A stretch of 64,000 nucleotides of DNA, from assembly GCA_016213365.1 (NCBI GenBank), contig JACRAP010000023.1, positions 15,871 to 79,870 of the forward strand, in the 5' to 3' direction. The DNA comes from Candidatus Berkelbacteria bacterium. GTDB taxonomy: Bacteria > Patescibacteriota > UBA1384 > 2-12-FULL-50-11. A program made the position numbers and the translations under genes. The notes beneath the pieces were generated by a model that saw only the letters and a program-made list of their open reading frames with translations, was not told the DNA's origin and ran no database searches. This document shows, in pieces, positions 1-60,123 of this stretch (the first letter of the stretch is position 1; each line of letters begins with the position of its first letter).

Positions 1-35
1 GAGCCCTTGGCGTAAGCCAGAGACTCTCGGGGTGG

Positions 36-755
36 TCATTTTGCGGCTGCCGACGAGCTGGACGCTGCGGCAGCAGCGGCAGCGGCGGCGGCCGCTTCGG
101 CGATGATATCGCCGATCGAGAGCGAGTTGTTGATGTTCATGCCTCCGAAGAGGCCACCCAACGAACTTGAGCGTTGGACGATGGTCGGCGGCGCGATCGT
201 CGCCGTTTGCTGCAGAGCTACCGAGTAGATGCGAACAAACTGGACGACTGGCACCTCTTCGCGGACGTACACGGTGCGCGTTTGGTAATGGTGGACAGGG
301 ATCTCGATTCGCTCACGGACGATCTTCGTCCGCTCTCGTTCAAATACACGCGTCTTGAGCGGAATTCGCTTCCGCTGCCAGACATAGTTTTTGCACGACT
401 GGACCTGAATCGGGTTATCTTCCCCGTCACAGATCACCTTCCTACCTGCAAGGCTTTCGTACTTCCACTTTCCGGTATTCCGGTAGTGGACGTACCCGTA
501 CTCGTCTTTGCGACCGGTACGAACATGAGTCCGTCCGGGAGCGGGCGTCAAGTAGTAGTCGACTCCCTCTCGAGAGTCGACCGCCTTCAGTCCACCATCT
601 TCGTGAGTGATGGTGACCTTAGGCTCACCATGGACGATCCGTTCGTCCTGAACGCTGGCGGACGAGCCGCTAGAGCCAGCGTCTTCGAAGACGACTTGGC
701 CAAAGCCAATAGCCGCCACAAGGGCGGCAAGAACTAACGTAAGAAGCCGTTTCAT
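36..755 (-). CDS. Secreted hypothetical protein with an N-terminal Sec signal peptide and a poly-Ala/Ser C-terminal tail, in the high-GC island
   Basis: ORF with N-terminus MKRLLTLVLAALVAAIGFGQ (signal-peptide-like). Local GC is about 55-60% versus about 38% elsewhere. It overlaps the upstream gene by 4 nt, suggesting an operon. Confidence 0.5.
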   Translation of the reverse strand: MKRLLTLVLAALVAAIGFGQVVFEDAGSSGSSASVQDERIVHGEPKVTITHEDGGLKAVDSREGVDYYLTPAPGRTHVRTGRKDEYGYVHYRNTGKWKYESLAGRKVICDGEDNPIQVQSCKNYVWQRKRIPLKTRVFERERTKIVRERIEIPVHHYQTRTVYVREEVPVVQFVRIYSVALQQTATIAPPTIVQRSSSLGGLFGGMNINNSLSIGDIIAEAAAAAAAAAAASSSSAAAK

Positions 756-1903
756 CGAATTTCCTCCTTGCTCACCACTATGAGCGCTGATCGACGGCCT
801 TGGCCGTCGGAAACGACGATCTCATCACCTAACTTCGGCGTCATTTTGAAGAACGCCGCGTAACGGCCGTTCGACTTTTTGCCCTTGGTGCGAAAGATGA
901 TGTTTCCGTCCCTCACAACTTCTACGTCGAACCCGCCGTCCGATCGAAGGAGTAGATAAAGGCGGTGTCCTGCAACGATATACGAGCTCCTTGCCTCGAA
1001 CGATTTCGGCTTGTCGCTGGAATCGATATCCTTAGCAATTCGCTCATCGCTCCAGTTGGTGGTCGACGGCACATAGCCGTATTTCCACACAACCTCGCTC
1101 GACTCGCGTCGAGTCGCAATCCCGGGAGTTGGTGCAGATTCAACCGTTTGGCTGACTTCTGGGTGTTCCACGGTTACCTGGTTTGAACTCCCCATAACAG
1201 CTTGTAGCTCGGCCTCGGTCGCAAAGTTACGAACTCTGCCGTCAGAAGTCATTCCCCAAACCGAGGGAGCTTGGGGGTTCATTACCTGCCCAGCTCCATG
1301 TACCGCAGCGCGCACTTTCTCGCTGTTGTACATCGAGAAGAACTGATCCATTGGGACATTGTGAAATTGGAAAAGAGCAGACTGCCCATCCCCCCATGAC
1401 ACACCTATACCAATAGCCCCCAAAGGCATCTCGTCCAACCATAAGATGGGGGATTCTGTTGGGTTACCGTTCTTGTCGATGAACCCCGCGTTATTGGAAA
1501 CGGTGCCGTCTGAGTGGACTTTTCCCCCACGAACACGCAACCGTAACTTCTTACTCGGCCCGTAGGCTGAGAAGATTGATATGTCAACATTTCGTGGCAT
1601 GTGCGAGGTATTGATCATTGGCACAGGCTGTAGTCCCACAGACCCGTTACGGTCCAAAGAAACTACATAAGAGAGTCCTCCATTGATTGACGAGAAGTAC
1701 CGCTCCCTTCCTTCGTGCCTCACAAAAACGTTCATCGAGCACACACCTGCAGATACAACCTCCTTCTTTTCAAGCTTGTCACCCGCAAGGGCGAAAATCA
1801 ACCTGAGTGGGTCGATCTGTGCCGAACTGACGGTCGGCAACGTGGCGACTACGAAAGTCGCCAAAAGTGCGAGAAAAAGGCGAACGTTTTTCATCGTCGC
1901 CAC
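752..1903 (-). CDS. Secreted hypothetical protein (383 aa) with a Sec signal peptide, in the high-GC island
   Basis: N-terminus MATMKNVRLFLALLATFVVATLPTVSSAQ. No recognisable catalytic motifs. GC-rich codon usage unlike the rest of the window. Confidence 0.5.
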   Translation of the reverse strand: MATMKNVRLFLALLATFVVATLPTVSSAQIDPLRLIFALAGDKLEKKEVVSAGVCSMNVFVRHEGRERYFSSINGGLSYVVSLDRNGSVGLQPVPMINTSHMPRNVDISIFSAYGPSKKLRLRVRGGKVHSDGTVSNNAGFIDKNGNPTESPILWLDEMPLGAIGIGVSWGDGQSALFQFHNVPMDQFFSMYNSEKVRAAVHGAGQVMNPQAPSVWGMTSDGRVRNFATEAELQAVMGSSNQVTVEHPEVSQTVESAPTPGIATRRESSEVVWKYGYVPSTTNWSDERIAKDIDSSDKPKSFEARSSYIVAGHRLYLLLRSDGGFDVEVVRDGNIIFRTKGKKSNGRYAAFFKMTPKLGDEIVVSDGQGRRSALIVVSKEEIR

Positions 1904-2674
1904 CTCCTATTTTCACGTTTTTATAGTTGATTCGCGTACAACTTTCGTTTCCGTTATGTTAACCTGCGCGTGCAAGGACATTACGGAGACTGTCTCAGCC
2001 AGGAAGAGGGAAGGAGGGAAATTGCCGAGAGTAGCAAGCTACTCAAAGTGGCAACTCTCCCTAATCCCAGCCGAGACAGTCCCCATAAAGCTCTATCGTC
2101 ACGTACGTCGCGATAATAGCATATACTTTCTCTGTTGTCAATCGATAATACCCTAATTTTGCATTATTAATAAAATAAGGAGCTCTGGTGGCCATACGGC
2201 AACACACAGAGCTCCCAGGAGCACCGTTACGAGCTTCGGTTAGGGCTAATCGAGTTACCCTGTTCCTTATATGGAACGTATATATCAAGTGCATTGCCGC
2301 AGCGATTTGCCTTGATTTTCTCTTGTAAACGGTGAAACCTCAAAACTCTCGACAAATCGAGAGTAAAGCGTTTGTTAACTTGGCCAATTTTAAGAACCTG
2401 AAGTAGGTCCACCAAGTTTTATATTTTGGACGGCAACGTCGTTGTCGCCTCCAAGCAGCCCACGAAACACGCAAATATTTTTATCCTAAAAGTGCGTTGC
2501 GCGATCGTGAGCTATTTGGAGTTAATGTTAAGGTGGGCCAATTTGGCTGAAAGCTCTTTAGACTTTCCCCTCTCGGCCTGTGTTATGTTTTTAGCATAAC
2601 GTCGGGATAATAGCATATGCTAATCAAAAAGTCAAGGGATTCGAGCATTATTTTAAATATCAATAAATAGTTTG

Positions 2675-2817
2675 CAGGTAAATTTCGTAACAACCGAAGC
2701 CGAAGGCGAGGTTTGTTGAAATTTACACCACACCCCTGTGGGAGCGACGGAGGAGGCTGGGGAGTTGTAGAGGGGTAGGGCGCGGCCTTCGCAACTCTGA
2801 GCACCCTACCCCTCTAC
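2675..2817. repeat. Inverted-repeat copy A (about 143 bp, GC-rich, with an internal 16-bp-stem hairpin), immediately 3' of cysS
   Basis: The sequence caggtaaatttcgtaacaaccgaagcc...ggagttgtagaggggtagggcgcggccttcgcaactctgagcaccctacccctctac is the reverse complement (about 95% identity) of 4528..4669. Confidence 0.85.
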
Positions 2818-2824
2818 AAAGTTA

Positions 2825-4159
2825 CTACCTTGAAAGGTAAACAGTCCCTTCTGGTGTATCCAATACCTCAAATCCGGCTTGTTCTATCTCTTTCTTCCTA
2901 TTATCTGCAGTTAAGTAATCTGCACCAGATCGTGCCTGTTCGCGTTGAGCTACTAATTCCTGAAGTGCCGGGTTGTTAGAAATTGACATATGCTTTAACC
3001 CTAATATTTCAAATATTTGCTCAAATTGCTCCTTATTAAAATCGTTTGTTTCGGTAGAAAGAATTTGTAGAGCTTTTGGCGTGTCCAAGTCGTCGTTTAG
3101 TGCTTCAATAAACCTGTTAAAAGCGTCTGTATTGGCGTTTTCTTGAGTATTAGCATATGCCATAAAAAGCTTATGTCTTAACGCCACTCCTTGCGCTAAC
3201 GATTCCTTGGTGTAATCAAACGGTTTACGGTAATGCGTACCATATAATGCCAATTTTAGCTCGTTTGCTGAATACTCCTTTAAAGCGTCTTTTACTAAAA
3301 CTGTGTTGTGAACTGACTTGCTCATTTTTTGACCATTAATTGTAAGCATTCCGGCATGCACCCAATAATTTGCCATTGGTTTATTAGTTAAAGCTTCTGA
3401 TTGGGCGATCTCGTTTTCGTGATGTGGAAATACATGTTCAACAGCAGAGCCATGAATATCGAAAGTATCACCAAGGTATTTTCGAATCATCGCCGAGCAT
3501 TCGATATGCCAACCTGGGTATCCGCGTCCCCAAGGCGAATCCCAAACAAATTCGTGACTCATAACGGGTGACGCTTTCCACAGAGCAAAATCCGCTGGAT
3601 TACGCTTATCCTTAGCGCTATCAACTCTTGTGCCGGTAATAACTTCCGCTAACGTTCGGTGACTTAGTTTGCCGTAATCGGCTTTTTTGGTAACACTAAA
3701 ATAAATATTATTCTGGTTTGTAACATATGCGTAATTATTTTCGATCAATCCTTGAATGAATTCTACAATTTCTTGAATGTGCTCGGATGCTTTTGGGAAG
3801 TTTGCGGCTGATAATATATTCAACGACCTTAAATCTTCTAGGTGCGAATCGGTATACATATGAGCGATATCCGACACCGACTTGCCGAGTTCGTGTGCTT
3901 TTTGTTGAAGTTTATCGGCGCCAACTTCTGCGTCGTTTACCAAATGTCCTACGTCGGTAATATTTTGTATGTAGGTAACGTCGTAACCTGAATATCTTAA
4001 AAATCGGTTTAATAAATCGAACGACAGATACGTTCGGGCGTGACCGATGTGATCGTAATCGTAAACAGTTGGACCGCAGACATACATACCAACTTTCTTT
4101 GGCTGAATCGATTGAAATTCCTCTTTACTACTAGTGAGAGTATTGTATATCTGGAGCAT
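2825..4159 (-). CDS. cysS: Cysteinyl-tRNA synthetase
   Basis: HIGH-type motif region [17 protein letters not shown] and KMSKS motif present. Class I CysRS architecture, 444 aa. Confidence 0.95.
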
Positions 4160-4202
4160 TACGGAGTAATAGTACTAGAAATAGAACCGAAGTTAAAGTT
4201 GT

Positions 4203-4481
4203 TTACTCGTCGTCGCCGTAGGAGTCGTTGGAGTAACTTTTTAGTTCTTCCTCTTCTTCGTCTGACTGTAATTGTTCTAGCGATAACGGCGATGACATAT
4301 CGTCGCCTGTATTTATTAAATCTGAAAAATCGTCGTTTACTAATTCTTCATCGCCTTCGGCGGCCTTTTCGGGAGAGAATGTCTTCATTGGCAAACCGCA
4401 ATCCGGACAGACTGCGTTTTGGGTTGGAGAGGTATAACCACAATTTTCGCAAACGTAATCTTCTTGTAACTCAGCTTTCAT
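4203..4481 (-). CDS. Small acidic zinc-ribbon protein (CxxC-x11-CxxC N-terminus, Asp/Glu-rich tail), co-directional and upstream of cysS
   Basis: Protein MKAELQEDYVCENCGYTSPTQNAVCPDCG..., 92 aa with a very acidic C-terminus. There is a 43-nt gap to cysS. Confidence 0.5.
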   Translation of the reverse strand: MKAELQEDYVCENCGYTSPTQNAVCPDCGLPMKTFSPEKAAEGDEELVNDDFSDLINTGDDMSSPLSLEQLQSDEEEEELKSYSNDSYGDDE

Positions 4482-4527
4482 ATTATTAGGTTAAAATATC
4501 TGGGATTATTGTCAAGGGATTTATTTC

Positions 4528-4669
4528 GTAGAGGGGTAGGGTGCTCAGAGTTGCGAAGGCCGCGCCCTACCCCTCTACAACTCCCCACCCTGGCCGTCGC
4601 TCCCACAGGGGTGTGGTGTAAATTTCAACAAACCTCGCCTTGGGCTTCGGTTGTTACGAAATTTACCTG
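4528..4669. repeat. Inverted-repeat copy B (about 142 bp), upstream of the zinc-ribbon/cysS unit
   Basis: Reverse complement of 2675..2817. It contains the same internal hairpin gtagaggggtaggg...ccctacccctctac. Confidence 0.85.
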
Positions 4670-4705
4670 ATACTATTAGATAGTCATCTTGAGATAATAC
4701 TTTTA

Positions 4706-5350
4706 TTAGTTATAACTCCTACGTCCTTCGAGGGCTCGTGAGAGCGTTAGTTCGTCTGCGTACTCTAAGTCGCCGCCTACGGGCAATCCACGAGCGATAC
4801 GCGTAACTTTTATGTCCTTTGTAATTTTGCCTGCTTCGATTAATTCTTTTATTCTATCGTCGATATATAGCGCTGTTGCTTCGCCTTCAAGCGATGGGTT
4901 AGTTGCTAGTATCACTTCTTTTACCTCCTCGCCCTTTAAGCGCTCGATTAACTCGTTAATTTTTAAATCTTCCGGAGAGACGTTATTGATCGGTGAAATT
5001 TGTCCGCCTAAAACGTGATACCGTCCGTCAAACCGGGCTTTTTCTAGCGCTAAAACATCGAGCGGCTCTTCCACAACCGCGATCTTACCGACTTGCCGTG
5101 TAGTATCGCTACAAATACCGCACGGATCAGTTTCGGCAACTATTTGGCAAACCGAGCATTTAGTAAGATTTTGTTTTAAGCTAGAAAATGCTAATCCGAA
5201 CTTAGCAAGTTCGTCGTTACTTCTGCTTAGTAAATAAAAAGTTAAGCGGTTAGCAGTTTTCGGTCCAACGCCCGGTAAACTTGCTAGCACTTCAGAGAGC
5301 GCCTCGATTGATTTTGGTAAAACGTTCCTCATTCTTGGGTATAATCGCAC
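4706..5350 (-). CDS. recR: Recombination protein RecR
   Basis: HhH motif region LPGVGPKTANRL, a C4 zinc finger (CSVC...CGIC) and a C-terminal Toprim region. 214 aa. Confidence 0.9.
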   Translation of the reverse strand: MRLYPRMRNVLPKSIEALSEVLASLPGVGPKTANRLTFYLLSRSNDELAKFGLAFSSLKQNLTKCSVCQIVAETDPCGICSDTTRQVGKIAVVEEPLDVLALEKARFDGRYHVLGGQISPINNVSPEDLKINELIERLKGEEVKEVILATNPSLEGEATALYIDDRIKELIEAGKITKDIKVTRIARGLPVGGDLEYADELTLSRALEGRRSYN

Positions 5351-7533
5351 TGACTACAGCTTAAACCGCCTTTTTTCTTGACTAATAAATTATTACATTT
5401 GGGGCATTTTTGATCGACCGGCTCGTACCAAAACGCTGTTTTGCATTTTGGGTAATTACCGCATCCCCAGAAAACCTTACCCCTGCGGCTATTTTTGCGC
5501 AATATTTCACCGCCACAATTTGGGCATTTCACCTCGGCGGCAATACTTATAGATTTGGTATATTTACATTTTGGATAATTAGAACAGCCAATAAAATTAC
5601 CGAAACGACTTTGCTTTAAAGCCAGTTCACCGCCACAATCTGGACATTTTTCTTTCACCTCTTCTTGGATCTGTTCCTTTTCTTGTTCGCTAACATTATC
5701 TGAAAGGTACGGCGCTCGGTAATCACAGTCTGGGTAGCCAGAACACGAATAAAATTTCCCGTAGCGACCAAGTTTAATTACAACAACTTTACCGCACTTG
5801 GGGCATTTTTGGTCGGTTTTTTCTTCAACTAGTGCTTTTTTCTCGATCGTCTTATCTTTCTCGGCTAATAATTTTTCAAACGGTCCGTAGAACTCCGCCA
5901 ATACCTTCTCGAATTCTTTTTTGCCGTCGGCGATATCGTCCAAGCTCTCTTCCATATCGGCGGTAAAATTGTAATCGACTATCGACGGGAAATTCTCTAC
6001 CAACAAGTCCGTAACTACCTCTGCAACCGATTCGGGAATGAAACGACCAGTTTGTTTGGTTACGTATCCCCTATCAACGATCGTGCTCATAATCGGGGCG
6101 TAAGTTGATGGTCTGCCGATGCCACGCTTTTCTAACTCTTTTACTAAGGTCGCTTCAGAGTATCTTGCCGGTGGTTCGGTAAAATGTTGCTCGCTCAAGA
6201 GTTTTTGAACTTTTACTTTTTCGTCTTTTTTTAGTTTAGGCAGTTCGACATATCTTTCAGTCACTTCTGGATAAACTTTTAAATACCCATCAAAGATTAG
6301 TTTTCTACCTCTTGCTTGAAAATTTAAGTCCTTTCCGGCGGTAAGTGTTGCGACGGTGGTTTTGACTTGAGCTGGCGCCATCATCGAACCCAGCGCCGTT
6401 TTGTAAATCATTTCATAAAGCCGTGCGTGATCTCGAGATAAGTGTTTCGCCGCTTGTTCTGGAGTTAAAGTAAAATCTGAAGGACGGATCGCTTCGTGCG
6501 CTTCTTGTGCGCCCTTAACTTTTTTTGTAAAAATGTTTGGTTTTTCTGGCAAGTACGCCGCCCCAAATTGCTTACCAATTAAGTTTGTAGCTTGGTTTCG
6601 TGCTGACTGGGCGATATTAAACGAATCAGTACGCATATAAGTAATTAAGCCGACTGATTCACTAGAGCCCACTTCTATACCCTCGTATAACTCTTGAGCG
6701 ATTCTCATCGTGCGCTTTGCCGAAAATCCGTACAAACGCGCTGCCATTTGTTGTAGGGTCGAGGTAATTAGCGGCGCGACCGGTCGAGTTAACGACTCTG
6801 ATTCGCTAATATCGTTTACGGATAAATCCTTACCTTTTAGTATCTTCGTTAACGCATCGATCTCTTTTTGCGTTGAAACCTCCAATTTACTACCATCTTT
6901 ATGTAGCGCGGCGGCCTTGAAATTGCCCGACTCACTTTTGCAATCAGCTTCTAGCGTCCAAAATTCCCTAGTTTTAAACGCTTTAATTTCGCGTTCGCGC
7001 TCTACGATTAAACGTACCGCCACCGATTGAACCCGCCCTGCCGACAAGCCGCGATAAACTTTTTTCCACAGTAGCGGTGAGAGCTTGTAACCTACTAATC
7101 TATCTAAAATTCGTCTGGCTTGTTGGGCGTCGACTAAATCCATACTTAACTTGCGTGGTTTGGCGACTGCTTCTTGAACTGCAGATTTAGTAATCTCGGT
7201 AAACGAAACTCTAAAGGTTGGTTTTTTAGTTTTAAGTAACTCGGTTAAGTGCCACGCGATCGCCTCGCCCTCTCTGTCTGGGTCGGGCGCTAAATATAAG
7301 GCATCGCTTTTTTCTAGTTCTTTTTTAAGATCGCTGATAACGTTTTTTGCTTTGGCGATCGGTAGATAATCGACGTCAAAATTATTTTTTACATCGATTC
7401 CAAGTTTTGTTTTTGGCAAATCGCGTACATGACCGTACGACGCTTTAATTACAAAACTATCACCCAAATATTGGCCGATAGTTTTGGCTTTTGCTGGACT
7501 CTCCACGATTAATAAATTTCTTTTCTTCTCCAT
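5329..7533 (-). CDS. topA: DNA topoisomerase I with C-terminal zinc-ribbon repeats
   Basis: N-terminus MEKKRNLLIVESPAKAKTIGQYLG (Toprim), a type IA core, and four C-terminal CxxC...CxxC zinc ribbons. Confidence 0.95.
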   Translation of the reverse strand: MEKKRNLLIVESPAKAKTIGQYLGDSFVIKASYGHVRDLPKTKLGIDVKNNFDVDYLPIAKAKNVISDLKKELEKSDALYLAPDPDREGEAIAWHLTELLKTKKPTFRVSFTEITKSAVQEAVAKPRKLSMDLVDAQQARRILDRLVGYKLSPLLWKKVYRGLSAGRVQSVAVRLIVEREREIKAFKTREFWTLEADCKSESGNFKAAALHKDGSKLEVSTQKEIDALTKILKGKDLSVNDISESESLTRPVAPLITSTLQQMAARLYGFSAKRTMRIAQELYEGIEVGSSESVGLITYMRTDSFNIAQSARNQATNLIGKQFGAAYLPEKPNIFTKKVKGAQEAHEAIRPSDFTLTPEQAAKHLSRDHARLYEMIYKTALGSMMAPAQVKTTVATLTAGKDLNFQARGRKLIFDGYLKVYPEVTERYVELPKLKKDEKVKVQKLLSEQHFTEPPARYSEATLVKELEKRGIGRPSTYAPIMSTIVDRGYVTKQTGRFIPESVAEVVTDLLVENFPSIVDYNFTADMEESLDDIADGKKEFEKVLAEFYGPFEKLLAEKDKTIEKKALVEEKTDQKCPKCGKVVVIKLGRYGKFYSCSGYPDCDYRAPYLSDNVSEQEKEQIQEEVKEKCPDCGGELALKQSRFGNFIGCSNYPKCKYTKSISIAAEVKCPNCGGEILRKNSRRGKVFWGCGNYPKCKTAFWYEPVDQKCPKCNNLLVKKKGGLSCSQCDYTQE

Positions 7534-7554: not shown

Positions 7555-8646
7555 TTATACTGACTGTTTTAAAGTATAATCGCCGTTACTTGTTAGCGCA
7601 ACCAGTCCAGATAGCTCTAGCTGGGTCAACTCTGTTAATATTTCATTGATACTTGAATTTGTAAGGTTTTGCAGTACATCTGCATTTGCGCTTTTCGTTT
7701 TTAATATTTCAACAATCGCACTACCAAGTTCTGTTAGCTCTATTTTTTGCGCGGATAATTTATAGTAACTGTTTAGTATTTCACTATTAATAAGCGGCGT
7801 TGCGCCGCAGGAAATTAAAAAGTTCGGCCCTTGGGAGGTGGGACGGGTGATATCGCCGGGAATTGCCATTAAATCGCGATTGTAGTCGATTGCGGCGCGA
7901 GCGGTAGTAAGCGTACCGGATTTTATTACTGCCTCAACAACTAATGTTAACGGCGCAAGACCGGCTAAAATGCGATTTCGAATTGGAAACTGATGCGCTT
8001 GCGGTAAAACTAGCGGCGGATACTCGCTAAGAATTACCCCACCGCTACCAATTATTTGTTCCGCTAATTTTTGATGTGCCTCAGGATAGATTCTATCTAA
8101 TCCCCCCGCTAGCACTCCAACCGTTTTACCACCGTTATTTAACGAAATTTCGTGGGCAATTTTATCGATTCCGTACGCTAAGCCACTGGCGATTACAACA
8201 CTACTGGCGAGCTGATCGCTAATTAAATTTTGCAACGCGTTTACGCCGTACTCAGTTGGTTTCCGAGTTCCAACGATCGTTAAAGTTGGGTTATTTAAGA
8301 TGGAAATATCGCCCCGATAAAATAACCAAAGTGGCGGATCGGTAATTTCTTTTAGTAATAACGGGTATTCGTTACTATCAATGGAGCAGATTTTTATATT
8401 AACTTTATTCATCAATTCAAGTTGTTTTTTTACGTTTTTTGGTCGAGATAAAAGCAATTTGGTTTGTTTTTGGCTAAATCCCCTACTAATTAATTCCGTA
8501 GAATTTGCTCGTAAAAAATCGTTAAAAGACTGAAAGCTCTTGTATACTTTTTGGCATATGTGCGGCGTTAAAAAATTGATCGAAGTAAAGCTAATTACAT
8601 CGCTTAAATTGGCTCCTAAAAACCACTGTTTTGCTGTTGACATCAT
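7555..8646 (-). CDS. dprA: DNA processing protein DprA/Smf
   Basis: Rossmann-like DprA core (VVIASGLAYGIDKIAH...VLAGGLDRIYP). 363 aa. Confidence 0.85.
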   Translation of the reverse strand: MMSTAKQWFLGANLSDVISFTSINFLTPHICQKVYKSFQSFNDFLRANSTELISRGFSQKQTKLLLSRPKNVKKQLELMNKVNIKICSIDSNEYPLLLKEITDPPLWLFYRGDISILNNPTLTIVGTRKPTEYGVNALQNLISDQLASSVVIASGLAYGIDKIAHEISLNNGGKTVGVLAGGLDRIYPEAHQKLAEQIIGSGGVILSEYPPLVLPQAHQFPIRNRILAGLAPLTLVVEAVIKSGTLTTARAAIDYNRDLMAIPGDITRPTSQGPNFLISCGATPLINSEILNSYYKLSAQKIELTELGSAIVEILKTKSANADVLQNLTNSSINEILTELTQLELSGLVALTSNGDYTLKQSV

Positions 8647-8828
8647 TTTATAAATATGTTAAATTACAAAAACTTGTCGAAATCAATATCGACTAGAGTA
8701 CATAAGACATGTAGCGCTCTCGAGAAATTGAGAGTGTTACTGCCTTCTGTACTACACTATCAGCGGCATAATAAATTCTGGTCGTTAAAAATGCAATGCA
8801 GGATAGTGAGAGTGCAAGGGGGTTAAAG

Positions 8829-8858
8829 AAAAAGCCACGGCGCAAGCTGTGGCTTTTT
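8829..8858 (-). terminator. Rho-independent terminator-like hairpin downstream of rplK
   Basis: Minus-strand sense gaaaaagccacagcttgcgccgtggcttttt followed by a T-run. Lies between the rplK stop and the dprA start. Confidence 0.5.
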
Positions 8859-8929
8859 CTAAATAAGAATTTTATTACTTTGCAACTTCAACTGCGAGCA
8901 ACTTGTTGCGAGAAGTGAAGTTGGCTCCG

Positions 8930-14340: not shown

Positions 14341-14943
14341 TTAATTAAACTTAAAACTTAACTTTCCGGTAACGTTATTCACACTTAGCGTGGCAGTTTT
14401 TTCGCCGTTATTCAAGCTAAGATCTGAAAAATCTATCCAGCTAGAATAGACAATATTTTGCGGATCGACAATTTCAATTCCAACATTTGGCGTATACTGG
14501 GCTTTAAATAGTTGCTGGGTTGGTACTTTAAATAATACAAAGACAGGACTAGTTGTTTGGTGTGTAACACCGTTACTTAACGGAATTTTTTCAACTACAC
14601 AATCCCCATATGTTTGTGAAATAACTTCTGAATTTGTAAAACTTGATATTTTACACGTTGCGGTGGGGTTATCAGTTGTATCATCAACTCTTAATATGTA
14701 GACATCTTTATTACTATCAGACGGAAAGTAAAGGGCGTAATAGCCCTTGCCGCTGTCGAACTGTTGAGTTGAGCCAGCAAGTAATCGAACTTGTTCGAGT
14801 TTTGCCTGGAGTAACTGGGCATCGTTGGCGATATTGTTTTTAGATAGCGAGCGGTTGATATTTGGAATTAATAGCGTCGCCATTAAAGCGATAATCGCGA
14901 TTGTGATAAGTACTTCAATTAAAGTAAATGCTTTTTTTATCAT
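14341..14943 (-). CDS. Type IV minor pilin
   Basis: MIKKAFTLIEVLITIAIIALMATLLIP. Confidence 0.75.
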   Translation of the reverse strand: MIKKAFTLIEVLITIAIIALMATLLIPNINRSLSKNNIANDAQLLQAKLEQVRLLAGSTQQFDSGKGYYALYFPSDSNKDVYILRVDDTTDNPTATCKISSFTNSEVISQTYGDCVVEKIPLSNGVTHQTTSPVFVLFKVPTQQLFKAQYTPNVGIEIVDPQNIVYSSWIDFSDLSLNNGEKTATLSVNNVTGKLSFKFN

Positions 14944-19335: not shown

Positions 19336-22011
19336 CTACATCGTGCTCGAAATATCTCTAATTGATGCGGTTGTTACCCGCATTACTTCGTCCACTGTTG
19401 TTATTCCTTTTAAGGCCTTGATTAAGCCGTCTTGCATCATTGTTATCATACCCTCTTTTATGGCTTGATTTTTCAATTCCGAGGCCGGTACTTTTCTATT
19501 TGCCAGCGCTTCTATGCCCGGTGTCATCGGCAACACTTCGAAAATTCCAATTCTACCCAAGTAACCGTTTGAGCATTTAGCACAGCCCTTACCGTGATAA
19601 AAAGTTAATTGCTCTTTGTTGATATTTTTTAGCTGACCGGTCGGAATTTCAGAGATATGCTTTAGGGCAAAATCCTTTACGGCCGATGGCAACTCAACAT
19701 GCTCTTTACAGTTATCACAAATTTTTCTAACTAAACGTTGGGCGATTACTGCGTTAATCGACGAGGTAATCAAAAACGGCTCAACACCCATATTAATTAA
19801 TCGTGGTAAGGCGCCGGAAGCGTCGTTGGTGTGAAGCGTCGAAAGTACCAAGTGTCCAGTTAAGGCCGAGTGCGTTGCCATCGCCGCTGTTTCTAGATCG
19901 CGAATTTCACCGACCATAATTACGTTAGGGTCTTGGCGCAAAACCGAACGTAAGCCGTCTGCGAAGTTGAAACCGATTTGTGGTTTTACCTGTGATTGGT
20001 TGATGCCAGGGAGCTCGTATTCAACCGGGTCCTCAAGCGTCACGATATTTACCCCCGGTTTACTAATTCTATTTAGAATTGCGTAAAGCGTGGTGGATTT
20101 ACCAGACCCAGTCGGACCGGTGGATAGGATAATTCCAAACGGTTTGTCGATATTTTCTACCAGTCGGTCGAAGTTAGTGCCTGTTACGCCAAGTTGCTCA
20201 AGCGTTAAAATACCAGCGCTTTTGTCCAGTAAACGCATAACCACTTTTTCACCGTGAACGGTTGGTAACGTTGAAACACGAATATCAACCTGGTGTCGAT
20301 CGATAATAACATCGAAACGACCGTCTTGCGGAACGCGTTGTTCGTCGATTTTCATTTTTGAGAGAATTTTAACCCTAGAAATTAGCGGCGAGCTTAAAAA
20401 TCCTGGGACACGCAAGACATCGTGCAAAATACCGTCGATTCTGTAACGCACCCGAACTGTTTCTTTTTCGGATTCAAGATGAACATCGCTGGCTTTCATC
20501 CTAATTGCCAGAAAAATTGTTGAGGCGATAATCTCTGGGATTGCGCCCTTTTTATAAACATTTGCTAGTTCCTGTATGCTGGTGACTTCTTTTTGAATTA
20601 GGGCGTCAAGATTTTCGTTTTCAAGTGATTTTGTTTGCTCGCTAGCTAATTCTTCTAACTGCTCGTTTTGCAATTCGTTAGGTTTATTTATGATTTCACT
20701 TGCTTCGACCGTTACACCACCCTCTAGAGGCGGGGGTGGAATTTTTTTAAATGACGGTATTTTAGCGGGCTCGGTTTTTTGATCTTCGGGCTTGTTTTGT
20801 TTTAGCGCCCCTGGAGTTGGTTGTTCCTTTGGTTTGTCCGACTCAAATTCTCTGCTTGTTGAAATAGTTTGCTCTTTGGGTTTGGTTAAAGTTGGCGGTG
20901 TTGTAACGACTGCTTCTTTTGTGGGTTGTTGAGTTGGCGCCTGAACAGGTTTTGAAGGATAGAATTTCAGAGCGTGTGTTAGCGACTCCTCGTCGGTAAT
21001 ATAGCGATCAACCAAAACTTTATTTTTTTGCTCGATGTAATGCAAAATTTCTTTTACGTGGACGTTTTCGGGGTTTACAACCGCCACTTTTATTTGCGGT
21101 ACTTCGTAACCGCTACCGGATTTTGTTTCGCCAAAAACGACTAATCGATATTTACTTGCAACCTCCTGCGGAATTTTTTTAATAATATTTTGTGGAATTT
21201 CCAGTTTGCGTAAATCAACGTGTTTAATCCTTGGCTCAACTTCGTTGATTAAATCTTTTTTATTTAATGCCTGTATCGGTTGGAATTTTCCGAGGATTCC
21301 GCCGCTTTTTTCTTGTTCCTGAGGTTTTGGCTCGGCTTTTAATTCCGGCTTTACCTGTTCTACTGGTTTTACTGTTTCGGTTTTGGGTTGTAGCGGTACA
21401 GTTGGTTGCTGGGGCGGTAACTCTGGTTTTACCTCTTCTGGAGATTTTGTTTGTGGAGTTACTGTTTTGGGAACAGATTCAATGCTCGGTACTTTAGTTA
21501 GTTTAGCGGTTTCGGGGACAAACGGCTTGGGCATCGCCAGTTGTTTAACGCGTTGCTCAAGTACTTTTATTAACGCCTTAAGCTGGGCTGGGTTAACAAG
21601 CGACAAATGAATTCTAAGCCCTTTTTGTTGGCGGATATTAGCGATAATTTTGGGCGCGTCTTTTTGAAGTTTCGACGGTTTGCCGATCGCCAAATAAAAA
21701 TTATTGCCTTCGATTTTATAGGGTACAACTTGATATTGCTTAATTATCTCGATCGGGATCATCCGGGCAACTGCCGGACTAATTGGTACGTTTGTTAAAT
21801 TTACAATATCTAGATCGAAATATTCGGCGAACTCGTCGACAATCTGCTCGATAGTTAAAAGACCTTTTTCGATTAAGTAATTTTCAATCTGCTCGAGATC
21901 TTTGCCTTTTAAAATATCTTTAAACCCGGGCTTAAGTAGCTCTCGCTGAATTAACTGCGAAACAAAGGCGCTATCGGCTCTGCTAAAATTTCGGGTGGAG
22001 TTGAACGCCAT
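19336..22011 (-). CDS. pilB: Type IV pilus assembly ATPase PilB (GspE family) with an extended N-terminal region containing Pro/Lys/Glu-rich linkers
   Basis: Walker A GPTGSGKSTT, a C-terminal tetracysteine (CDNC...CAKC), and GSPII_E N-terminal domains. 891 aa versus about 570 typical, with long low-complexity PT/KPE linkers. Confidence 0.9.
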   Translation of the reverse strand: MAFNSTRNFSRADSAFVSQLIQRELLKPGFKDILKGKDLEQIENYLIEKGLLTIEQIVDEFAEYFDLDIVNLTNVPISPAVARMIPIEIIKQYQVVPYKIEGNNFYLAIGKPSKLQKDAPKIIANIRQQKGLRIHLSLVNPAQLKALIKVLEQRVKQLAMPKPFVPETAKLTKVPSIESVPKTVTPQTKSPEEVKPELPPQQPTVPLQPKTETVKPVEQVKPELKAEPKPQEQEKSGGILGKFQPIQALNKKDLINEVEPRIKHVDLRKLEIPQNIIKKIPQEVASKYRLVVFGETKSGSGYEVPQIKVAVVNPENVHVKEILHYIEQKNKVLVDRYITDEESLTHALKFYPSKPVQAPTQQPTKEAVVTTPPTLTKPKEQTISTSREFESDKPKEQPTPGALKQNKPEDQKTEPAKIPSFKKIPPPPLEGGVTVEASEIINKPNELQNEQLEELASEQTKSLENENLDALIQKEVTSIQELANVYKKGAIPEIIASTIFLAIRMKASDVHLESEKETVRVRYRIDGILHDVLRVPGFLSSPLISRVKILSKMKIDEQRVPQDGRFDVIIDRHQVDIRVSTLPTVHGEKVVMRLLDKSAGILTLEQLGVTGTNFDRLVENIDKPFGIILSTGPTGSGKSTTLYAILNRISKPGVNIVTLEDPVEYELPGINQSQVKPQIGFNFADGLRSVLRQDPNVIMVGEIRDLETAAMATHSALTGHLVLSTLHTNDASGALPRLINMGVEPFLITSSINAVIAQRLVRKICDNCKEHVELPSAVKDFALKHISEIPTGQLKNINKEQLTFYHGKGCAKCSNGYLGRIGIFEVLPMTPGIEALANRKVPASELKNQAIKEGMITMMQDGLIKALKGITTVDEVMRVTTASIRDISSTM

Positions 22012-25011: not shown

Positions 25012-25095
25012 TGCTGGGTGAGGGATTCGAACCCCCGAAGGCACAAGGCCATCGCGTTTACAGCGCGCTACGTTTGACCACTTCGCTAACCCAGC
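25012..25095 (-). tRNA. tRNA-Tyr (anticodon GTA) with a long variable arm
   Basis: gctgggttagcgaagtggtcaaacgtagcgcgctgtaaacgcgatggccttgtgccttcgggggttcgaatccctcacccagca. Anticodon loop CUGUAAA. Confidence 0.85.
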
Positions 25096-25742
25096 ATATT
25101 ATTTATTGCGTATCTTATGTCGTCCATTAGGTTATCCCACAAACGCTTGTCTGCATAGCGTATATGAACTAATCCGTTTTTCATTTTATCATTATGATTA
25201 CTGGTTAGTCCAGATTTAATATATGGTTTTGTAAACTGAGATTTAGGTATATCTAGTAGTTTAGACCAGTAACTAATAATTTTACCAACATCCCTATTTT
25301 CATGCGTGTATAAATAAACCCTTAGCTTCTCTTCATTGATTTGATAAATCTCCCTAAGCATTCTTAAGAAAATAGAAATTACTTGCGGATCTGAATTTGC
25401 TAGGTCTACAACACCGAATGATTTTTTTGAACCTTCACCTAGATATATAAAGAGTCCGGCAATAAATAACTCATTTTGTTTTGTGTTCAGTCTTGTTAAC
25501 TTCGAGTAACTCAATGGTTTTGATAAAAAAGTTAGCTTATTTGAATATACCGTTGTTCTTCTAGGAATTTCTCTCCGTTTAAGGGTTCTATATATTGACC
25601 ATTGAGAAATATTCAAAATATTTGCTATTTGTGGCGCACTCTTTCCCTGTGAATATAAATCACAAATCGATATATCTATATTTTCTTGCATTTGAATAAT
25701 AATACACAAATCAGTATCCACTTGCACTTCAAACCGAGCCAC
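25086..25742 (-). CDS. HTH plus LAGLIDADG-like (homing-endonuclease-like) protein wedged between tRNA-Tyr and tRNA-Thr
   Basis: N-terminal HTH (SAPQIANILNISQWSIYRTLKR) followed by ELFIAGLFIYLGEGSKK, which resembles a LAGLIDADG motif (GLxIxLG-acidic-G). The ORF ends overlap both flanking tRNA genes; alternative start at the MQEN Met (25691). Confidence 0.45.
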   Translation of the reverse strand: MARFEVQVDTDLCIIIQMQENIDISICDLYSQGKSAPQIANILNISQWSIYRTLKRREIPRRTTVYSNKLTFLSKPLSYSKLTRLNTKQNELFIAGLFIYLGEGSKKSFGVVDLANSDPQVISIFLRMLREIYQINEEKLRVYLYTHENRDVGKIISYWSKLLDIPKSQFTKPYIKSGLTSNHNDKMKNGLVHIRYADKRLWDNLMDDIRYAINNMLG

Positions 25743-58345: not shown

Positions 58346-58468
58346 TGTCTTGGCGCCGGTCTACTTTCCCGGGAGCTGTTAGCTCCGAGTATCATCGATG
58401 CTGATGGGCTTAACTGCTCTGTTCGGTATGGGAAGAGGTGTACCCCCATCGCTTTAAGCACCAAGACA
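58346..58468 (-). rRNA. rrf: 5S ribosomal RNA
   Basis: Minus sense tgtcttggtgcttaaagcgatgggggtacacctcttcccataccgaacagagcagttaagcccatcagcatcgatgatactcggagctaacagctcccgggaaagtagaccggcgccaagaca. Helix I pairing and conserved CCGAAC/AGUA motifs. Confidence 0.85.
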
Positions 58469-58730
58469 AAAAACTCAAAATGTTCGAGTGTGTTCCAAAC
58501 TAAAGTTGAAGATACTTCTTCTAGTAGCTGTTTACTCTTTCCTGCCTAGAAATATCGCAATTACATAAACGATGCTATCGAGATTGCTCTCGACAGTTAA
58601 ACAGAAAAGAGAAAGTAATTCATGGACCTATAAGTATCCCTTGGCTCAACGCGTTACCGCGCTTACACCTAGGACCTTTCAACCCGGTAGTCTTCCGGGG
58701 GTCTCATAACGAAGATTAATCTTGGGACCT

Positions 58731-58761
<31 letters not shown>

Positions 58762-59039
58762 AGTTATGATCGTAGCTACTCGACAGTGCCCTTGGCAGGA
58801 CAGCCGATACACCAGCGGATCATCCGCTCCGGTCTTCTCATACTAGGAGCCGCCTCCCTCAATCTTCCGCGCTTACAGCAGATGAGGACCGAACTGTCTC
58901 GCGACGTTCTGAACCCAGCTCGCGTACCCTTTTAATTGGCGAACAGCCAAACCCTTGGGACCTTCTCCAGCCCCAGGATAGGATGAGCCGACATCGAGGT
59001 GCCAAACTGCGCCGTCTCTGTGGACGATTGGGCGCAATC

Positions 59040-59076
<37 letters not shown>

Positions 59077-59236
59077 GCCGGCCGTCTCGTACTGAAACCG
59101 GCTGGATCACTTACGCCTGCTTTCGCACCTGCTCGGCTTGTAGGCCTCACAGTCAAGCTCGCTTTTGGGTATACCCTATCGGTACGATTTCCACCCGTAC
59201 CTAGCGAACCTTTGCACGCCTCCGTTACCTTTTAGG

Positions 59237-60123
59237 CAATTTTGTTAACTTAGTTTGTATTTCATCGAGGGAATTATATGGTTTGACACCAATAAGGTAA
59301 ATTTCTCAATTTGACTGGCGGGAATATAGATCTGGTACCCGTCTAACTGCCTCCGAAGCGTCGTCGTAATTACGAATTGGTTCTTCAACAAATCTTGCAA
59401 ATAACTAACACTTTGAACATCAAATGCTTGAGTATTTAGTATTTTTGCGCGATGTTTAGCTGACTTGGATGACCCATCATCCATAAACCAAACCGCTAAT
59501 GATAATTGCGTGACAAATCGTGAAATTGTTCCTGGAATTATCTTTTTTCCTTCTCGATAGAAGAGCTTTCCATACGGCGACAAAGACTCAAGGCCCAAGG
59601 TATTAAAGTAGTAGTTTCTACTTTGCTTACCATTCCTATGCTTTTCTTTTGCTTTTGGTTTCGTCCTTACAAGATTATGTAGTTCGGAGTAAATCCATTC
59701 CACATACTCTTTGTGAGCGAACGATTGCTCAACTTTCAAACGATATGTTCTGCCGTTATTCTGAGTTTCTAAATGTCCGTCACCCAACATTAGTCCGACA
59801 ATTATTTCTATTTGACGGGGCGTTAGATTAACAGATTTTGAAATATCATGAATTTCTGCGGTATTCATACCTATTTAAGCGTCTTGTACAAAGACAAGAC
59901 TCTGTATGTCGCCATACAGTTCAGACTATATCTTCGCTAGAATTTGTAAATACTATTTTCTAGCGCTCGGCGTGTAGTCGTTGAGGGGTCAATTCATTTC
60001 TGAACGACTTCCCTGCTGATTGTCTCCATAGTCCAACCGATTACTCGTTGGAATTTTAGAGAGGTCCCAGCATATAGCCAAGATGCCCCTTTCTGATCGT
60101 TATTATACTGGTGATCATGGTCA
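59237..60123 (-). mobile_element. Group I-type intron in 23S rRNA domain V (887 nt) carrying a homing endonuclease ORF
   Basis: Conserved exon sequence gactggggcggtcgcct | cctaaaaggtaacggagg is interrupted. The 5' exon ends in U and the intron ends in G. An ORF fills the 3' two-thirds. Confidence 0.6.
59245..59868 (-). CDS. LAGLIDADG homing endonuclease (double-motif) encoded within the 23S intron
   Basis: Motif 1 RQIEIIVGLMLGDGHLE and motif 2 LSLAVWFMDDGSSKS. 207 aa. Confidence 0.85.
   Translation of the reverse strand: MNTAEIHDISKSVNLTPRQIEIIVGLMLGDGHLETQNNGRTYRLKVEQSFAHKEYVEWIYSELHNLVRTKPKAKEKHRNGKQSRNYYFNTLGLESLSPYGKLFYREGKKIIPGTISRFVTQLSLAVWFMDDGSSKSAKHRAKILNTQAFDVQSVSYLQDLLKNQFVITTTLRRQLDGYQIYIPASQIEKFTLLVSNHIIPSMKYKLS

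What the first reader, a model, noticed from the sequence alone, without database searches (positions are those of the whole stretch)
2675..4669. A small zinc-ribbon gene plus cysS bracketed by 143-bp GC-rich inverted repeats
- Two copies of a 143-bp element (about 95% identical) sit in inverted orientation: one exactly 3' of cysS (2675..2817) and one 5' of the co-directional acidic zinc-ribbon ORF (4528..4669).
- Each copy also contains its own 16-bp-stem hairpin (gtagaggggtaggg...ccctacccctctac).
- A transcript spanning both would have 5' and 3' ends complementary over about 140 nt, forming a panhandle or RNase III substrate.
- Alternatively these are two copies of a MITE-like repeat, or the ends of an invertible or mobilisable segment carrying an essential aaRS.
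- No other copies occur in the window.
Basis: seen in the sequence. Interest (0 to 1): 0.6.

Follow-up and report, generated by a model that had tools for sequence, protein, structure and literature searches.

The report
Dispersed hairpin repeat flanking cysS
The two inverted 143-bp GC-rich repeats around the zinc-ribbon/cysS gene pair are real, but they are two recent copies of an apparently undescribed (not in Rfam 15) family of hairpin-forming intergenic elements found at other sites in related Berkelbacteria (CPR) genomes, not a device built around cysS.

Summary
Observation confirmed. Copy A (2675-2817, +) and copy B (4669-4528, -) are 96.5% identical. They are the only copies in the 64-kb window and are 55-56% G+C in a ~40% G+C Berkelbacteria genome.

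They are lineage-specific insertions. Eight relatives keep the same dprA-topA-recR-Zn-ribbon-cysS synteny, and none has the element at either site.

The unit is not an orphan. A covariance model built from it found seven further members in three relatives, at other intergenic sites. A model rebuilt from those seven alone scores the window copies highest (97 and 88-93 bits). Members share a variable terminator-like hairpin, conserved blocks (CCACACCUCUGUGAGAAGCG; loop UCGCAA) and a long G+C-rich hairpin.

The fold is supported by compensatory changes (23 of 35 pairs) and is better on one strand (G.U 25 vs A.C 7). Seven of nine copies lie in sense orientation 25-107 nt upstream of a start codon.

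A conserved promoter-like site lies between copy B and the Zn-ribbon ATG, so the main cysS transcript should not carry both repeats. No recombinase or transposase is in the window.

Best reading: a REP/ERIC-like dispersed structured repeat family, recently duplicated here. The bracketing of cysS is probably incidental. A panhandle in read-through RNA is not excluded.

The parts
2670..2822 (+). Copy A of the element. Core repeat 2675-2817; weak extension 2666-2833. Its sense strand is the + strand, so it points into the 3' end of cysS and is antisense to local transcription.
   Evidence: Family model R2 scores 88.4 bits and 93.4 bits with filters off.
4523..4674 (-). Copy B of the element. Core repeat 4528-4669; weak extension 4512-4678. 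Sense on the - strand, between the recR stop and the Zn-ribbon gene. This is the typical context for the family.
   Evidence: R2 scores 96.9 bits, the best hit of all.
2678..2727 (+). H1 of copy A: imperfect A+T-rich hairpin with a G+C-rich tip (GCC-GAA-GGC). It corresponds to the variable, terminator-like hairpin plus U-run of other family members.
2728..2762 (+). H2 of copy A: CACCACACCCC..GGGAGCGACGG..GGGGAG. It is homologous to the conserved block CYCCACACCUCUGUGAGAAGCG..GGGGUUGGAG of relatives. It contains the only variable patch between the two window copies.
2765..2819 (+). H3 of copy A: 16-bp perfect stem (TTGTAGAGGGGTAGGG / CCCTACCCCTCTACAA) with a 23-nt loop carrying the family motif CUUCGCAA.
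   Evidence: helix 5: 13 of 18 pairs with compensatory changes
4528..4578 (-). H3 of copy B: 14-bp perfect stem with the same loop.
4203..4481 (-). Acidic Zn-ribbon gene (92 aa). It is conserved directly upstream of cysS in seven of the eight relatives whose DNA was read, and in the DNA-less P0007 contig. In L038 only a 56-aa remnant remains, separated from cysS by an opposite-strand ORF.
   Evidence: (weak Zn-ribbon Pfam hits below the curated cut-offs)
2825..4159 (-). cysS (444 aa). 100% identical to a Candidatus Berkelbacteria MAG protein. The C-terminus is Y-L-S-R-*, against Y-[ILV]-P-R-* in the four relatives whose 3' ends were read (L037, L038, L041, L043).
4488..4515 (-). Promoter-like site TTGACA (4515-4510), 16 nt, TAACCT (4493-4488), then 6 nt to the ATG. 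It lies inside the repeat-bounded segment, and L037 has the same spacing.
   Evidence: Sequence. It was not called by the consensus scan because the -10 is weak. Inferred, not shown.
2607..2635 (-). Promoter-like site TTGACT-17-TATTAT downstream of cysS. It is conserved about 16-46 nt after the cysS stop in the four relatives read there (L037, L038, L041, L043). In the window, copy A lies between the stop codon and this site.
4706..5350 (-). recR, the upstream neighbour of copy B.

Best explanation
The two repeats are paralogous copies, 96.5% identical and therefore recently duplicated or homogenised. They belong to a family of roughly 110-170-nt, G+C-rich, non-coding elements scattered in intergenic spacers of some Berkelbacteria-related CPR genomes.

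A full member has four parts: (i) a variable hairpin followed by a U-run (terminator-like); (ii) a short hairpin H2 with the conserved block CYCCACACCUCUGUGAGAAGCG...GGGGUUGGAG; (iii) a long G+C-rich hairpin H3 (..TAGGGG(G)C.. loop CC-UCGCAA-AU ..(G)CCCCT..); and (iv) in some copies a 3' block AGCCYTGGCTG.

Shown: family membership; absence from the orthologous sites of relatives; selection on the single-strand fold; strand asymmetry.

Inferred: the family spreads within genomes as a non-autonomous element recognised through its hairpins, in the manner of REP/REPIN or IS200/IS605-derived elements. It settles in the spacer between the end of one gene (or its terminator) and the promoter or start of the next. 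Copy B is the canonical insertion, in sense orientation upstream of zn-cysS. Copy A is a secondary inverted copy placed just after the cysS stop.

The bracketing of zn-cysS is a by-product of local copying, not a regulatory design. When transcribed, the element would act only as a generic stable stem-loop module at a transcript boundary.
For: (1) Real and non-random repeat.
(2) Insertions relative to relatives: eight relatives keep dprA-topA-recR-zn-cysS-(promoter)-385-aa gene, and none has the unit at either site by blastn or CM. The recR-zn spacer is 17-42 bp in L041, L043, L053, L061 and the P0007 contig (145-154 bp, without the element, in L051 and L052) against 224 bp in the window. The cysS-stop-to-promoter spacer is 46 nt in L037, against 7+143+39 nt in the window.
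(3) Family: model R1 (window copies) hits L044 x2, L051 x2 and L052 x3. Model R2, built from those seven only, gives the window copies 96.9 and 88.4 bits, the first and third best scores. A strict regular expression for the H3 motif occurs only in the window copies and the L044 copies among 452 kb.
(4) Structure under selection: 93.6% of cells paired vs 72.6% in shuffles and 38-56% in slid controls; 23 of 35 pairs have double changes. Compensatory GG/CC to CC/GG and G-C to A-T swaps occur between copies within one genome, L052.
(5) Strand asymmetry: G.U 25 vs A.C 7. Eight of nine copies fold 2-15 kcal/mol better on the sense strand.
(6) Dispersed and duplicative behaviour: sites differ between species. 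Copies cluster by genome (window A/B 92% in the core; L052-1/-2 81%; otherwise 35-58%). Unit boundaries are sharp in L052. Distribution is patchy, 4 of 9 genomes sampled.
(7) No terminal inverted repeats, no target-site duplication, no ORF.
Against: No transposase or recombinase was found in the window or next to any copy, so the mobilising enzyme is hypothetical.

Copy number looks low: 2 in 64 kb here. No whole genome could be scanned.

One site, upstream of prfA, is shared by two species (L044 and L051), and unpaired blocks are conserved across species whose CysS is only about 65% identical to the window's. Both facts fit a host function at least as well as selfish spread.

The alignments used for covariation were fitted to the model structure, which inflates pair counts somewhat.

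Two copies only 1.7 kb apart, when these are the only two in 64 kb, is unlikely for independent random insertions. Some local mechanism or selection is implied.
Confidence: 0.5

Rival explanations
1. Host cis-acting RNA module. The element is transcribed by read-through or from upstream promoters as part of co-directional gene arrays. It works as RNA at transcription-unit boundaries: H1 plus the U-run terminates or attenuates, and H2-H3 binds a conserved protein or RNase, or blocks exonucleases. The family is kept by host selection, and new copies arise by occasional duplication.
For: Sense-strand-specific fold. Seven of nine copies are in sense orientation 25-107 nt upstream of a co-directional start codon. 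Unpaired blocks are conserved between distant species. The same site upstream of prfA is occupied in two species, with compensatory stem changes. H1 resembles an intrinsic terminator in L044-2, L051 and L052.
Against: Sites are mostly non-orthologous, and the element is absent from 5 of 8 relatives sampled. Downstream genes have no common function (recR, topA, rplU, pth, prfA, zn-cysS). Promoter-like sites lie downstream of the element in several cases (window B, L052-1, L044-2, L051-1), and H1 would terminate transcription before H2-H3, so transcription of the conserved part is uncertain. Two copies (window A, L051-2) are in the antisense context. No Rfam family matches.
Confidence: 0.3
2. 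Long-range RNA panhandle. In read-through transcripts dprA-topA-recR-zn-cysS, sense copy B and antisense copy A pair over about 143 nt. RNase III cleaves the duplex and releases a zn-cysS RNA with paired ends, as happens for 16S and 23S rRNA precursors.
For: Near-perfect complementarity. Cofold energy is -301.5 kcal/mol against -131 for the two separate local folds. All genes are co-directional with short spacers. Both copies sit exactly at the borders of the gene pair.
Against: A promoter-like site conserved in the closest relative lies inside the segment, so the main transcript would lack copy B. Local hairpins form first during transcription. Five of the seven family members in relatives are single, and the pair in L051 is back-to-back rather than around a gene. 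All eight relatives express zn-cysS without such repeats. No transcript data are available.
Confidence: 0.08
3. Invertible or mobilisable 1.85-kb segment. The inverted copies serve as recombination substrates (RecA or a site-specific enzyme) that flip or move zn-cysS.
For: The inverted repeats have perfect stretches of 44, 31 and 60 nt, which from general knowledge is long enough for RecA-dependent recombination. The closest relative L037 carries a rearrangement whose breakpoint lies within about 10 bp of the inner edge of copy B.
Against: Orientation and neighbours of zn-cysS are the ancestral ones. No recombinase is in the window. The promoter lies inside the segment, so flipping has no regulatory effect. 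L037 has no trace of the element. Breakpoints are constrained to the few short intergenic spacers anyway. A weak model hit at the other L037 breakpoint (8758-8863) is only a terminator hairpin.
Confidence: 0.05
4. Assembly artefact or chimeric contig joined at a repeat.
For: Window 1-2000 is 52-57% G+C against about 40% elsewhere.
Against: Both flanks of both copies are collinear with relatives, including the G+C-rich 383-aa and 239-aa genes and the conserved leader at 1981-2088. The copies differ at 5 of the 143 aligned positions, which include a 1-nt indel, so they are not the same reads used twice.
Confidence: 0.01

Closest known systems
REP / BIME / REPIN elements mobilised by RAYT (TnpA-REP) transposases
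   Same: Intergenic, non-coding and G+C-rich relative to spacers. Built around a hairpin whose fold is maintained by compensatory change. No terminal inverted repeats or target duplications. Strand-specific single-strand structure. Within-genome copies are more alike than between genomes. Inverted doublets occur (the L051 back-to-back pair and the window pair). The H3 stem of the window copies begins with GTAG.
   Different: REPs are 20-50-nt palindromes preceded by a conserved tetranucleotide, usually GTAG, and occur in hundreds of copies (PMC8266576). REPINs are two inverted REPs (PMC3337134 and PMC3116915 abstracts). This unit is 110-170 nt and modular, with conserved unpaired blocks. GTAG is not conserved in the family (GTGC, GTGT, TGGA, CTCC in relatives). 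Local density is low, and no RAYT gene was seen.
ERIC (IRU) and pneumococcal BOX elements (comparison from my own knowledge)
   Same: Intergenic repeats of about 100-150 nt. They are conserved in sequence across species yet sit at non-orthologous sites. Copy number is low to moderate. They fold into long RNA stem-loops when co-transcribed and can alter mRNA stability. BOX is modular, as this family is.
   Different: ERIC is one long imperfect palindrome with terminal inverted repeats. BOX has boxA/B/C modules. There is no sequence relationship, and this family has three separate hairpins with conserved loops. Those elements are known in Enterobacteria/Vibrio and Streptococcus, not in CPR.
IS200/IS605-derived non-autonomous elements (PATEs)
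   Same: Hairpins near the ends. No terminal inverted repeats and no target-site duplication. Strand-specific, with an orientation bias along co-directional genes.
   Different: The defining conserved 4-5-nt target immediately 5' of the left end is not clear here: the flanks read TTAA, TAAA, TCTA, TCTA, TAAA. No TnpA or TnpB gene is nearby. The left hairpin is variable between species rather than conserved.
Classical MITEs, e.g. Neisseria Correia elements (comparison from my own knowledge)
   Same: Small, non-coding and intergenic. They can be co-transcribed, and the resulting hairpins can be RNase III substrates. They may carry promoter-like hexamers at an end.
   Different: MITEs have terminal inverted repeats and target-site duplications. 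Neither is present.
rRNA precursor processing stems (comparison from my own knowledge)
   Same: Long-range complementarity flanking a functional unit within a longer transcript, giving an RNase III substrate. This is the analogy for the panhandle reading.
   Different: Nothing here shows that both copies are in one transcript. An internal promoter-like site argues against it.

Membership tests
REP / REPIN (RAYT-associated) | Palindrome of 20-50 nt directly preceded by a conserved tetranucleotide, usually GTAG (PMC8266576) | tested here: not met
   The window H3 starts with GTAG, but the family alignment shows GTGC, GTGT, TGGA, CTCC and GTGA at that position. The unit is 110-170 nt with three hairpins.
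REP / REPIN (RAYT-associated) | Tens to hundreds of copies per genome, mostly intergenic | not testable with these tools
   Only 64 kb of this genome and 7-21 kb of each relative could be read: 2 copies in 64 kb, 2 in 21 kb, 2 in 16 kb, 3 in 21 kb, and 0 in five other loci.
REP / REPIN (RAYT-associated) | A RAYT / TnpA-REP (Y1 HUH) gene in the same genome | not testable with these tools
   None in the window or next to copies in relatives (and precomputed Pfam).
REP / REPIN (RAYT-associated) | Hairpin fold maintained by compensatory substitutions; single-strand specificity | tested here: met
Classical MITE | Terminal inverted repeats | tested here: not met
   The ends (AATAGT..CAGGTAAATTTC and ..CCCTCTAC) are not complementary. 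Only an 8-nt ATTTCGTA match involving the flank of copy B was seen.
Classical MITE | Target-site duplication flanking each copy | tested here: not met
   No direct repeat abuts either copy. The non-element spacer after cysS is 7+39 = 46 nt, the same length as the empty site in L037.
IS200/IS605-derived PATE | Conserved 4-5-nt target immediately 5' of the left end, with no duplication | tested here: inconclusive
   The five copies with an AATAGT start have flanks ending TTAA, TAAA, TCTA, TCTA, TAAA. In four of them a CTAT or CCAT lies 2-3 nt upstream. There are too few copies to decide.
IS200/IS605-derived PATE | Subterminal hairpins at both ends recognised by TnpA; parent IS with the same ends | tested here: inconclusive
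   Hairpins are present near both ends. No parent IS and no partial match to the unit occur elsewhere in the window.
Any Rfam RNA family (including T-box, ribozymes, sRNAs) | Covariance-model score at or above the gathering threshold | tested here: not met
   Nothing at gathering threshold. Only sub-threshold miRNA-type hairpin hits at E up to 10 on the unit and on an L052 member.
Invertible DNA switch (inverton/shufflon) | Inverted repeats flanking a promoter or coding segment, plus a nearby invertase; both orientations occur | tested here: not met
   No invertase or recombinase is in the 64 kb. The promoter is inside with its genes. Orientation equals that of relatives. Whether both orientations occur could not be tested without reads.

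The most novel reading that the evidence does not exclude
The family is a host-selected RNA 'punctuation' module of streamlined CPR genomes, marking and processing boundaries inside long co-directional transcripts. In this genome a sense/antisense pair has been recruited to form a 143-bp long-range duplex. RNase III would cut this duplex and excise a zn-cysS mRNA with protected paired ends, a messenger-RNA analogue of rRNA processing stems.
Probability: 0.1. Interest if true: 0.7.

Novelty: new member of a known kind. Interest (0 to 1): 0.4.

Why it matters
CPR (Patescibacteria) genomes are small and gene-dense, and I know of little description of dispersed repeats in them; two keyword searches of the held papers brought up none.

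This finding gives a concrete family with a covariance model, nine members, conserved loops, covarying stems and strand asymmetry. That is useful in three ways:
- It provides a handle for finding the enzyme or RNA-binding protein that recognises the element, for example a CPR RAYT-like transposase.
- It is a marker of recent genome change in uncultivated lineages.
- It is a candidate transcript-boundary element in organisms whose transcription signals are barely known.

For the original finding the value is mainly corrective: the cysS 'bracket' is most likely an accident of repeat duplication.

Tried and rejected
- Known RNA family: Rfam at gathering and permissive thresholds on the window, the unit and a relative's copy gave only chance miRNA-type hairpin hits.
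- Hairpin-stem pattern scan of 185,579 species genomes: 36 loci, all unrelated hairpins that share only GAGGGGTAGGG.
- Two metagenome scans (24-mer; 14-nt-stem hairpin): no hits.
- Seven viral scans: nothing, or chance matches only.
- Plasmid and phage blastn: no match.
- Six-frame peptides of the unit against 5.8 billion proteins, to catch spurious ORF calls on other copies: none.
- Exact-protein look-ups for this genome's own Zn-ribbon and CysS proteins: not on record, so no strain variants could be compared.
- Chimeric contig at the G+C-rich left end: rejected, because it is syntenic with relatives.
- Coding potential of the unit: rejected, because there is no ATG and the indel shifts the frame between the copies.
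- Transposase or recombinase in the window: none among about 50 ORFs.
- A degenerate third copy at 8758-8863, which would have explained the L037 inversion by repeat recombination: it is only a bidirectional terminator hairpin.
- Strain comparison within the P0012 species for presence/absence: the contigs are 99.99-100% identical and therefore uninformative.
- A possible 3-4-bp pseudoknot between the H2 loop GCGA and the H3 loop UCGC: no covariation is available, and it is absent in L051-2, so it was not pursued.
Full report
**Observation.** The repeat is real.
- The repeat finder reports two adjoining inverted-repeat pairs, 2675-2750 / 4594-4669 (99% complementary) and 2754-2833 / 4512-4591 (93%).
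- blastn of 2675-2817 finds 4669-4528 at 96.5% over 143 nt (E 6e-65). blastn and nhmmer find nothing else in the 64 kb.
- The copies differ by one substitution in a hairpin loop and by a 7-nt patch with a 1-nt indel.
- Each copy contains the reported perfect hairpin: 16 bp in copy A (2765-2780 / 2804-2819) and 14 bp in copy B, with a 23-nt loop.
- The whole unit folds into three hairpins, H1 to H3, with z-scores of -4.1 to -5.7 against shuffles.
- The unit is 55-56% G+C in a genome of about 40%.

**Setting.**
- All local genes are on the minus strand: dprA 7555-8646, topA 5329-7533, recR 4706-5350, an acidic 92-aa Zn-ribbon gene 4203-4481 and cysS 2825-4159.
- CysS is 100% identical to a protein of a Candidatus Berkelbacteria MAG.
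- The rest of the window carries ordinary CPR core genes: ribosomal proteins, type IV pilus, mur/fts genes, aminoacyl-tRNA synthetases, and a 23S rRNA with a group I intron. No transposase, integrase or invertase is present.
- Read on the coding strand, copy B is 'sense' and lies between the recR stop and the Zn-ribbon gene. Copy A is 'antisense' and begins 7 nt after the cysS stop.

**Relatives.** I obtained the orthologous locus from eight relatives whose CysS is 64-82% identical to the window's.
- Seven of the eight keep the order dprA-topA-recR-Zn-ribbon-cysS, followed by a long non-coding stretch, a ~385-aa gene and a ~250-aa gene; L037 is the exception, with a rearrangement that places zn-cysS next to the dprA upstream region. 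The G+C-rich left end of the window is therefore native, not chimeric.
- None has the 143-bp unit at either site.
- The recR-zn spacer is 17-42 bp in L041, L043, L053, L061 and the P0007 contig (145-154 bp, still without the element, in L051 and L052), against 224 bp in the window.
- A promoter-like site TTGACW-17-TGCTATTAT follows the cysS stop by about 16-46 nt in the four relatives read there (L037, L038, L041, L043). In the window it is split from the stop by the element: 7 + 143 + 39 nt, against 46 nt in the closest relative L037. Both copies are therefore lineage-specific insertions without target duplication.
- A second promoter-like site (TTGACA-16-TAACCT, then 6 nt to the ATG; 4515-4488) lies between copy B and the Zn-ribbon start. 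L037 has it with the same spacing, and L053 and L061 have analogous sites. This is inferred, not shown.
- If that site is real, the main zn-cysS transcript does not contain copy B.

**The element is not an orphan.** Sequence searches failed: one scan of the species-genome collection, two metagenome scans, seven viral scans, plasmid and phage blastn, and a six-frame peptide search. A covariance model succeeded.
- A model built from the two window copies (R1) hit intergenic sequences in three relatives:
  - L044 8761-8892 (topA|recR) and 14578-14715 (upstream of prfA).
  - L052 809-921 (upstream of rplU), 5742-5857 (upstream of topA) and 19545-19660 (ybaB|pth).
  - L051 15921-16067 (upstream of prfA) and, 27 nt away on the other strand, 15893-15744.
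- These share the architecture but also unpaired sequence: CYCCACACCUCUGUGAGAAGCG in and around H2, GGGGUUGGAG closing it, TAGGGG(G)C ... CC-UCGCAA-AU ... (G)CCCCT in H3, and in several copies a 5' AATAGTT and a 3' AGCCYTGGCTG block.
- A model rebuilt from the seven relatives' sequences alone (R2) scores the window copies 96.9 and 88.4 bits, first and third of all hits. Caveat: the training alignment had been guided by R1.
- R2 finds no further copy in the window, even with filters off, and none in L037, L038, L043, L053/L054 or L061.
- The 'fuzzy' similarity beyond the 143-nt core of the window copies (AATAGT at the 5' end; CCTTGA about 11 nt past H3) matches the family's terminal blocks, so it probably belongs to the element.

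**Structure and strand.**
- On the nine-member alignment, 93.6% of cells are paired, against 72.6% in shuffles and 38-56% when partners are slid. 23 of 35 pairs show changes on both sides, and H3 has 13 of 18 such pairs. The alignment is fitted to the model, so these numbers lean towards the structure.
- Compensatory swaps are also visible in a plain MAFFT alignment of the three L052 copies: GGAG/TTCC to CCAC/TTGG, and G-C to A-T.
- Paired cells contain 25 G.U against 7 A.C.
- Independently of any alignment, eight of nine copies fold 2-15 kcal/mol better on the sense strand than on its complement.
- The constrained fold is therefore that of one strand, as RNA or as single-stranded DNA.

**Distribution.**
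- Seven of nine copies are in sense orientation 25-107 nt upstream of a co-directional start codon. Two (window A, L051-2) point into the 3' end of a convergent gene.
- Sites are mostly non-orthologous between species. The spacer upstream of prfA is occupied in both L044 and L051, with different, compensating stems.
- Copies cluster by genome: window A/B are 92% identical in the core and L052-1/-2 are 81%; all other pairs are 35-58%.
- H1 is variable. In several copies it looks like an intrinsic or bidirectional terminator (stem plus U-run). In L044-2 it is the terminator of the upstream gene.
- Promoter-like sites for the downstream gene lie 3' of the element in several cases. The typical position is thus the spacer between the end of one transcription unit and the promoter of the next.

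**Interpretation.** This pattern is that of bacterial interspersed repeats of the REP/REPIN, ERIC or BOX kind: intergenic, non-coding, hairpin-constrained, strand-specific, patchy, at non-orthologous sites, with near-identical copies within a genome and sharp unit boundaries, and without terminal inverted repeats or target duplications.
- I favour (about 0.5) a non-autonomous element copied through recognition of its single-strand hairpins. The window pair would be a recent local duplication, and the bracketing of zn-cysS incidental.
- The main rival (about 0.3) is a host cis-acting RNA module at transcript boundaries. It is supported by the conserved loops, the shared prfA site and the sense bias. 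It is weakened by the unrelated downstream genes, the patchy presence and the doubtful transcription of H2-H3.
- Strict membership fails for three classes. REPs need a conserved GTAG plus a 20-50-nt palindrome and hundreds of copies (PMC8266576). MITEs need terminal inverted repeats and target duplications. No Rfam family matches. Membership of the IS200/IS605-derived class is inconclusive.

- Panhandle. A transcript carrying both copies would strongly prefer the 143-bp duplex (-301.5 against -131 kcal/mol). Such a transcript requires read-through from recR past H1 and past the internal promoter, and five of the seven members in relatives occur singly. I give this about 0.08 as a selected function.
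- Invertible or mobilisable segment. The repeats could support occasional RecA-mediated flipping. However, orientation and neighbours are ancestral, no recombinase is present, and the promoter travels with the genes, so nothing would be switched. I give this about 0.05.
- The closest relative L037 has an inversion breakpoint within about 10 bp of the inner edge of copy B, but L037 carries no element. A weak model hit at the other breakpoint is only a terminator hairpin. Breakpoints are confined to the few short spacers in any case.

**Loose ends.** At copy A the element's 3' extension overlaps the last cysS codons. They read S-R-stop (tca agg tag) instead of the P-R-stop of the four relatives read there. 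At copy B the same extension coincides with the TTGACA box. Either element-derived sequence now supplies these signals, or the matches are chance. L037 has the TTGACA without the element, which favours chance or an ancient remnant.

**Verdict.** The added value is the recognition of a structured repeat family in Berkelbacteria that is not in Rfam 15 and that I did not find described. Interest is moderate (0.4). It is a new member of a known kind.

Noticed in passing
window 1981-2088 (- strand), with promoter-like site 2141..2113: A ~90-nt long hairpin with invariant GUCUCGGCUGGGAUUAGGGAGAG ... UUUCCCUCCUUCCCUCUUCCUGGCUGAGAC. It is 74-93% identical in seven of the eight relatives read (the L037 contig did not show it) and always lies upstream of the ~385-aa signal-peptide gene. 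RNAalifold gives 42 pairs, 13 with compensatory changes. No Rfam family matches. It is a candidate new 5'-leader RNA.
   Followed up: partly
window ~2170-2606 (- strand), promoter-like site 2635..2607: A promoter-like site conserved after cysS in the four relatives read there drives about 430 nt without a convincing ORF. Segments 2447-2520 and 2335-2363 are 89-93% identical in L037. This may be an unannotated non-coding RNA.
   Followed up: no
L037 2561|2577, corresponding to window 8860|4517: In the closest relative the zn-cysS block abuts the dprA upstream region in divergent orientation. This implies an inversion of the recR-topA-dprA block relative to the window and the other relatives.
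   Followed up: partly
window 2825-2836: The CysS C-terminus is Y-L-S-R-stop (TAG) here, but Y-[ILV]-P-R-stop (TAA) in the four relatives whose 3' ends were read (L037, L038, L041, L043). The changed codons coincide with the weak 3' extension of copy A.
   Followed up: partly
window 1-1903: Two genes for signal-peptide proteins (383 aa and 239 aa, no Pfam hit) are 52-57% G+C against about 40% for the rest. They are nevertheless syntenic with relatives, so this is a native high-G+C island.
   Followed up: partly
window 58611-62726: The 23S rRNA gene spans 4.1 kb because of a group I intron (59902-60151) with a LAGLIDADG endonuclease ORF (59245-59868). A 5S rRNA follows at 58348-58465, and no 16S rRNA is nearby.
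   Followed up: no
window 25086-25742 (- strand): A 218-aa ORF with only a weak resolvase-type HTH hit fills the gap between tRNA-Tyr and tRNA-Thr in a four-tRNA cluster.
   Followed up: no
L006-L033 (Planctomycetota MAG MFD09603.bin.2.73): The hairpin-stem pattern scan picked up 13 copies, on seven contigs, of a nested palindromic repeat in one Planctomycetota MAG (…GGGGGAGAGGGGTAGGGGGTGAGGGGG…). It is unrelated to the present family apart from the GAGGGGTAGGG word.
   Followed up: no
L051 15744-16067: Two diverged family members lie back to back in inverted orientation, 27 nt apart, upstream of prfA. This is a REPIN-like doublet arrangement.
   Followed up: partly
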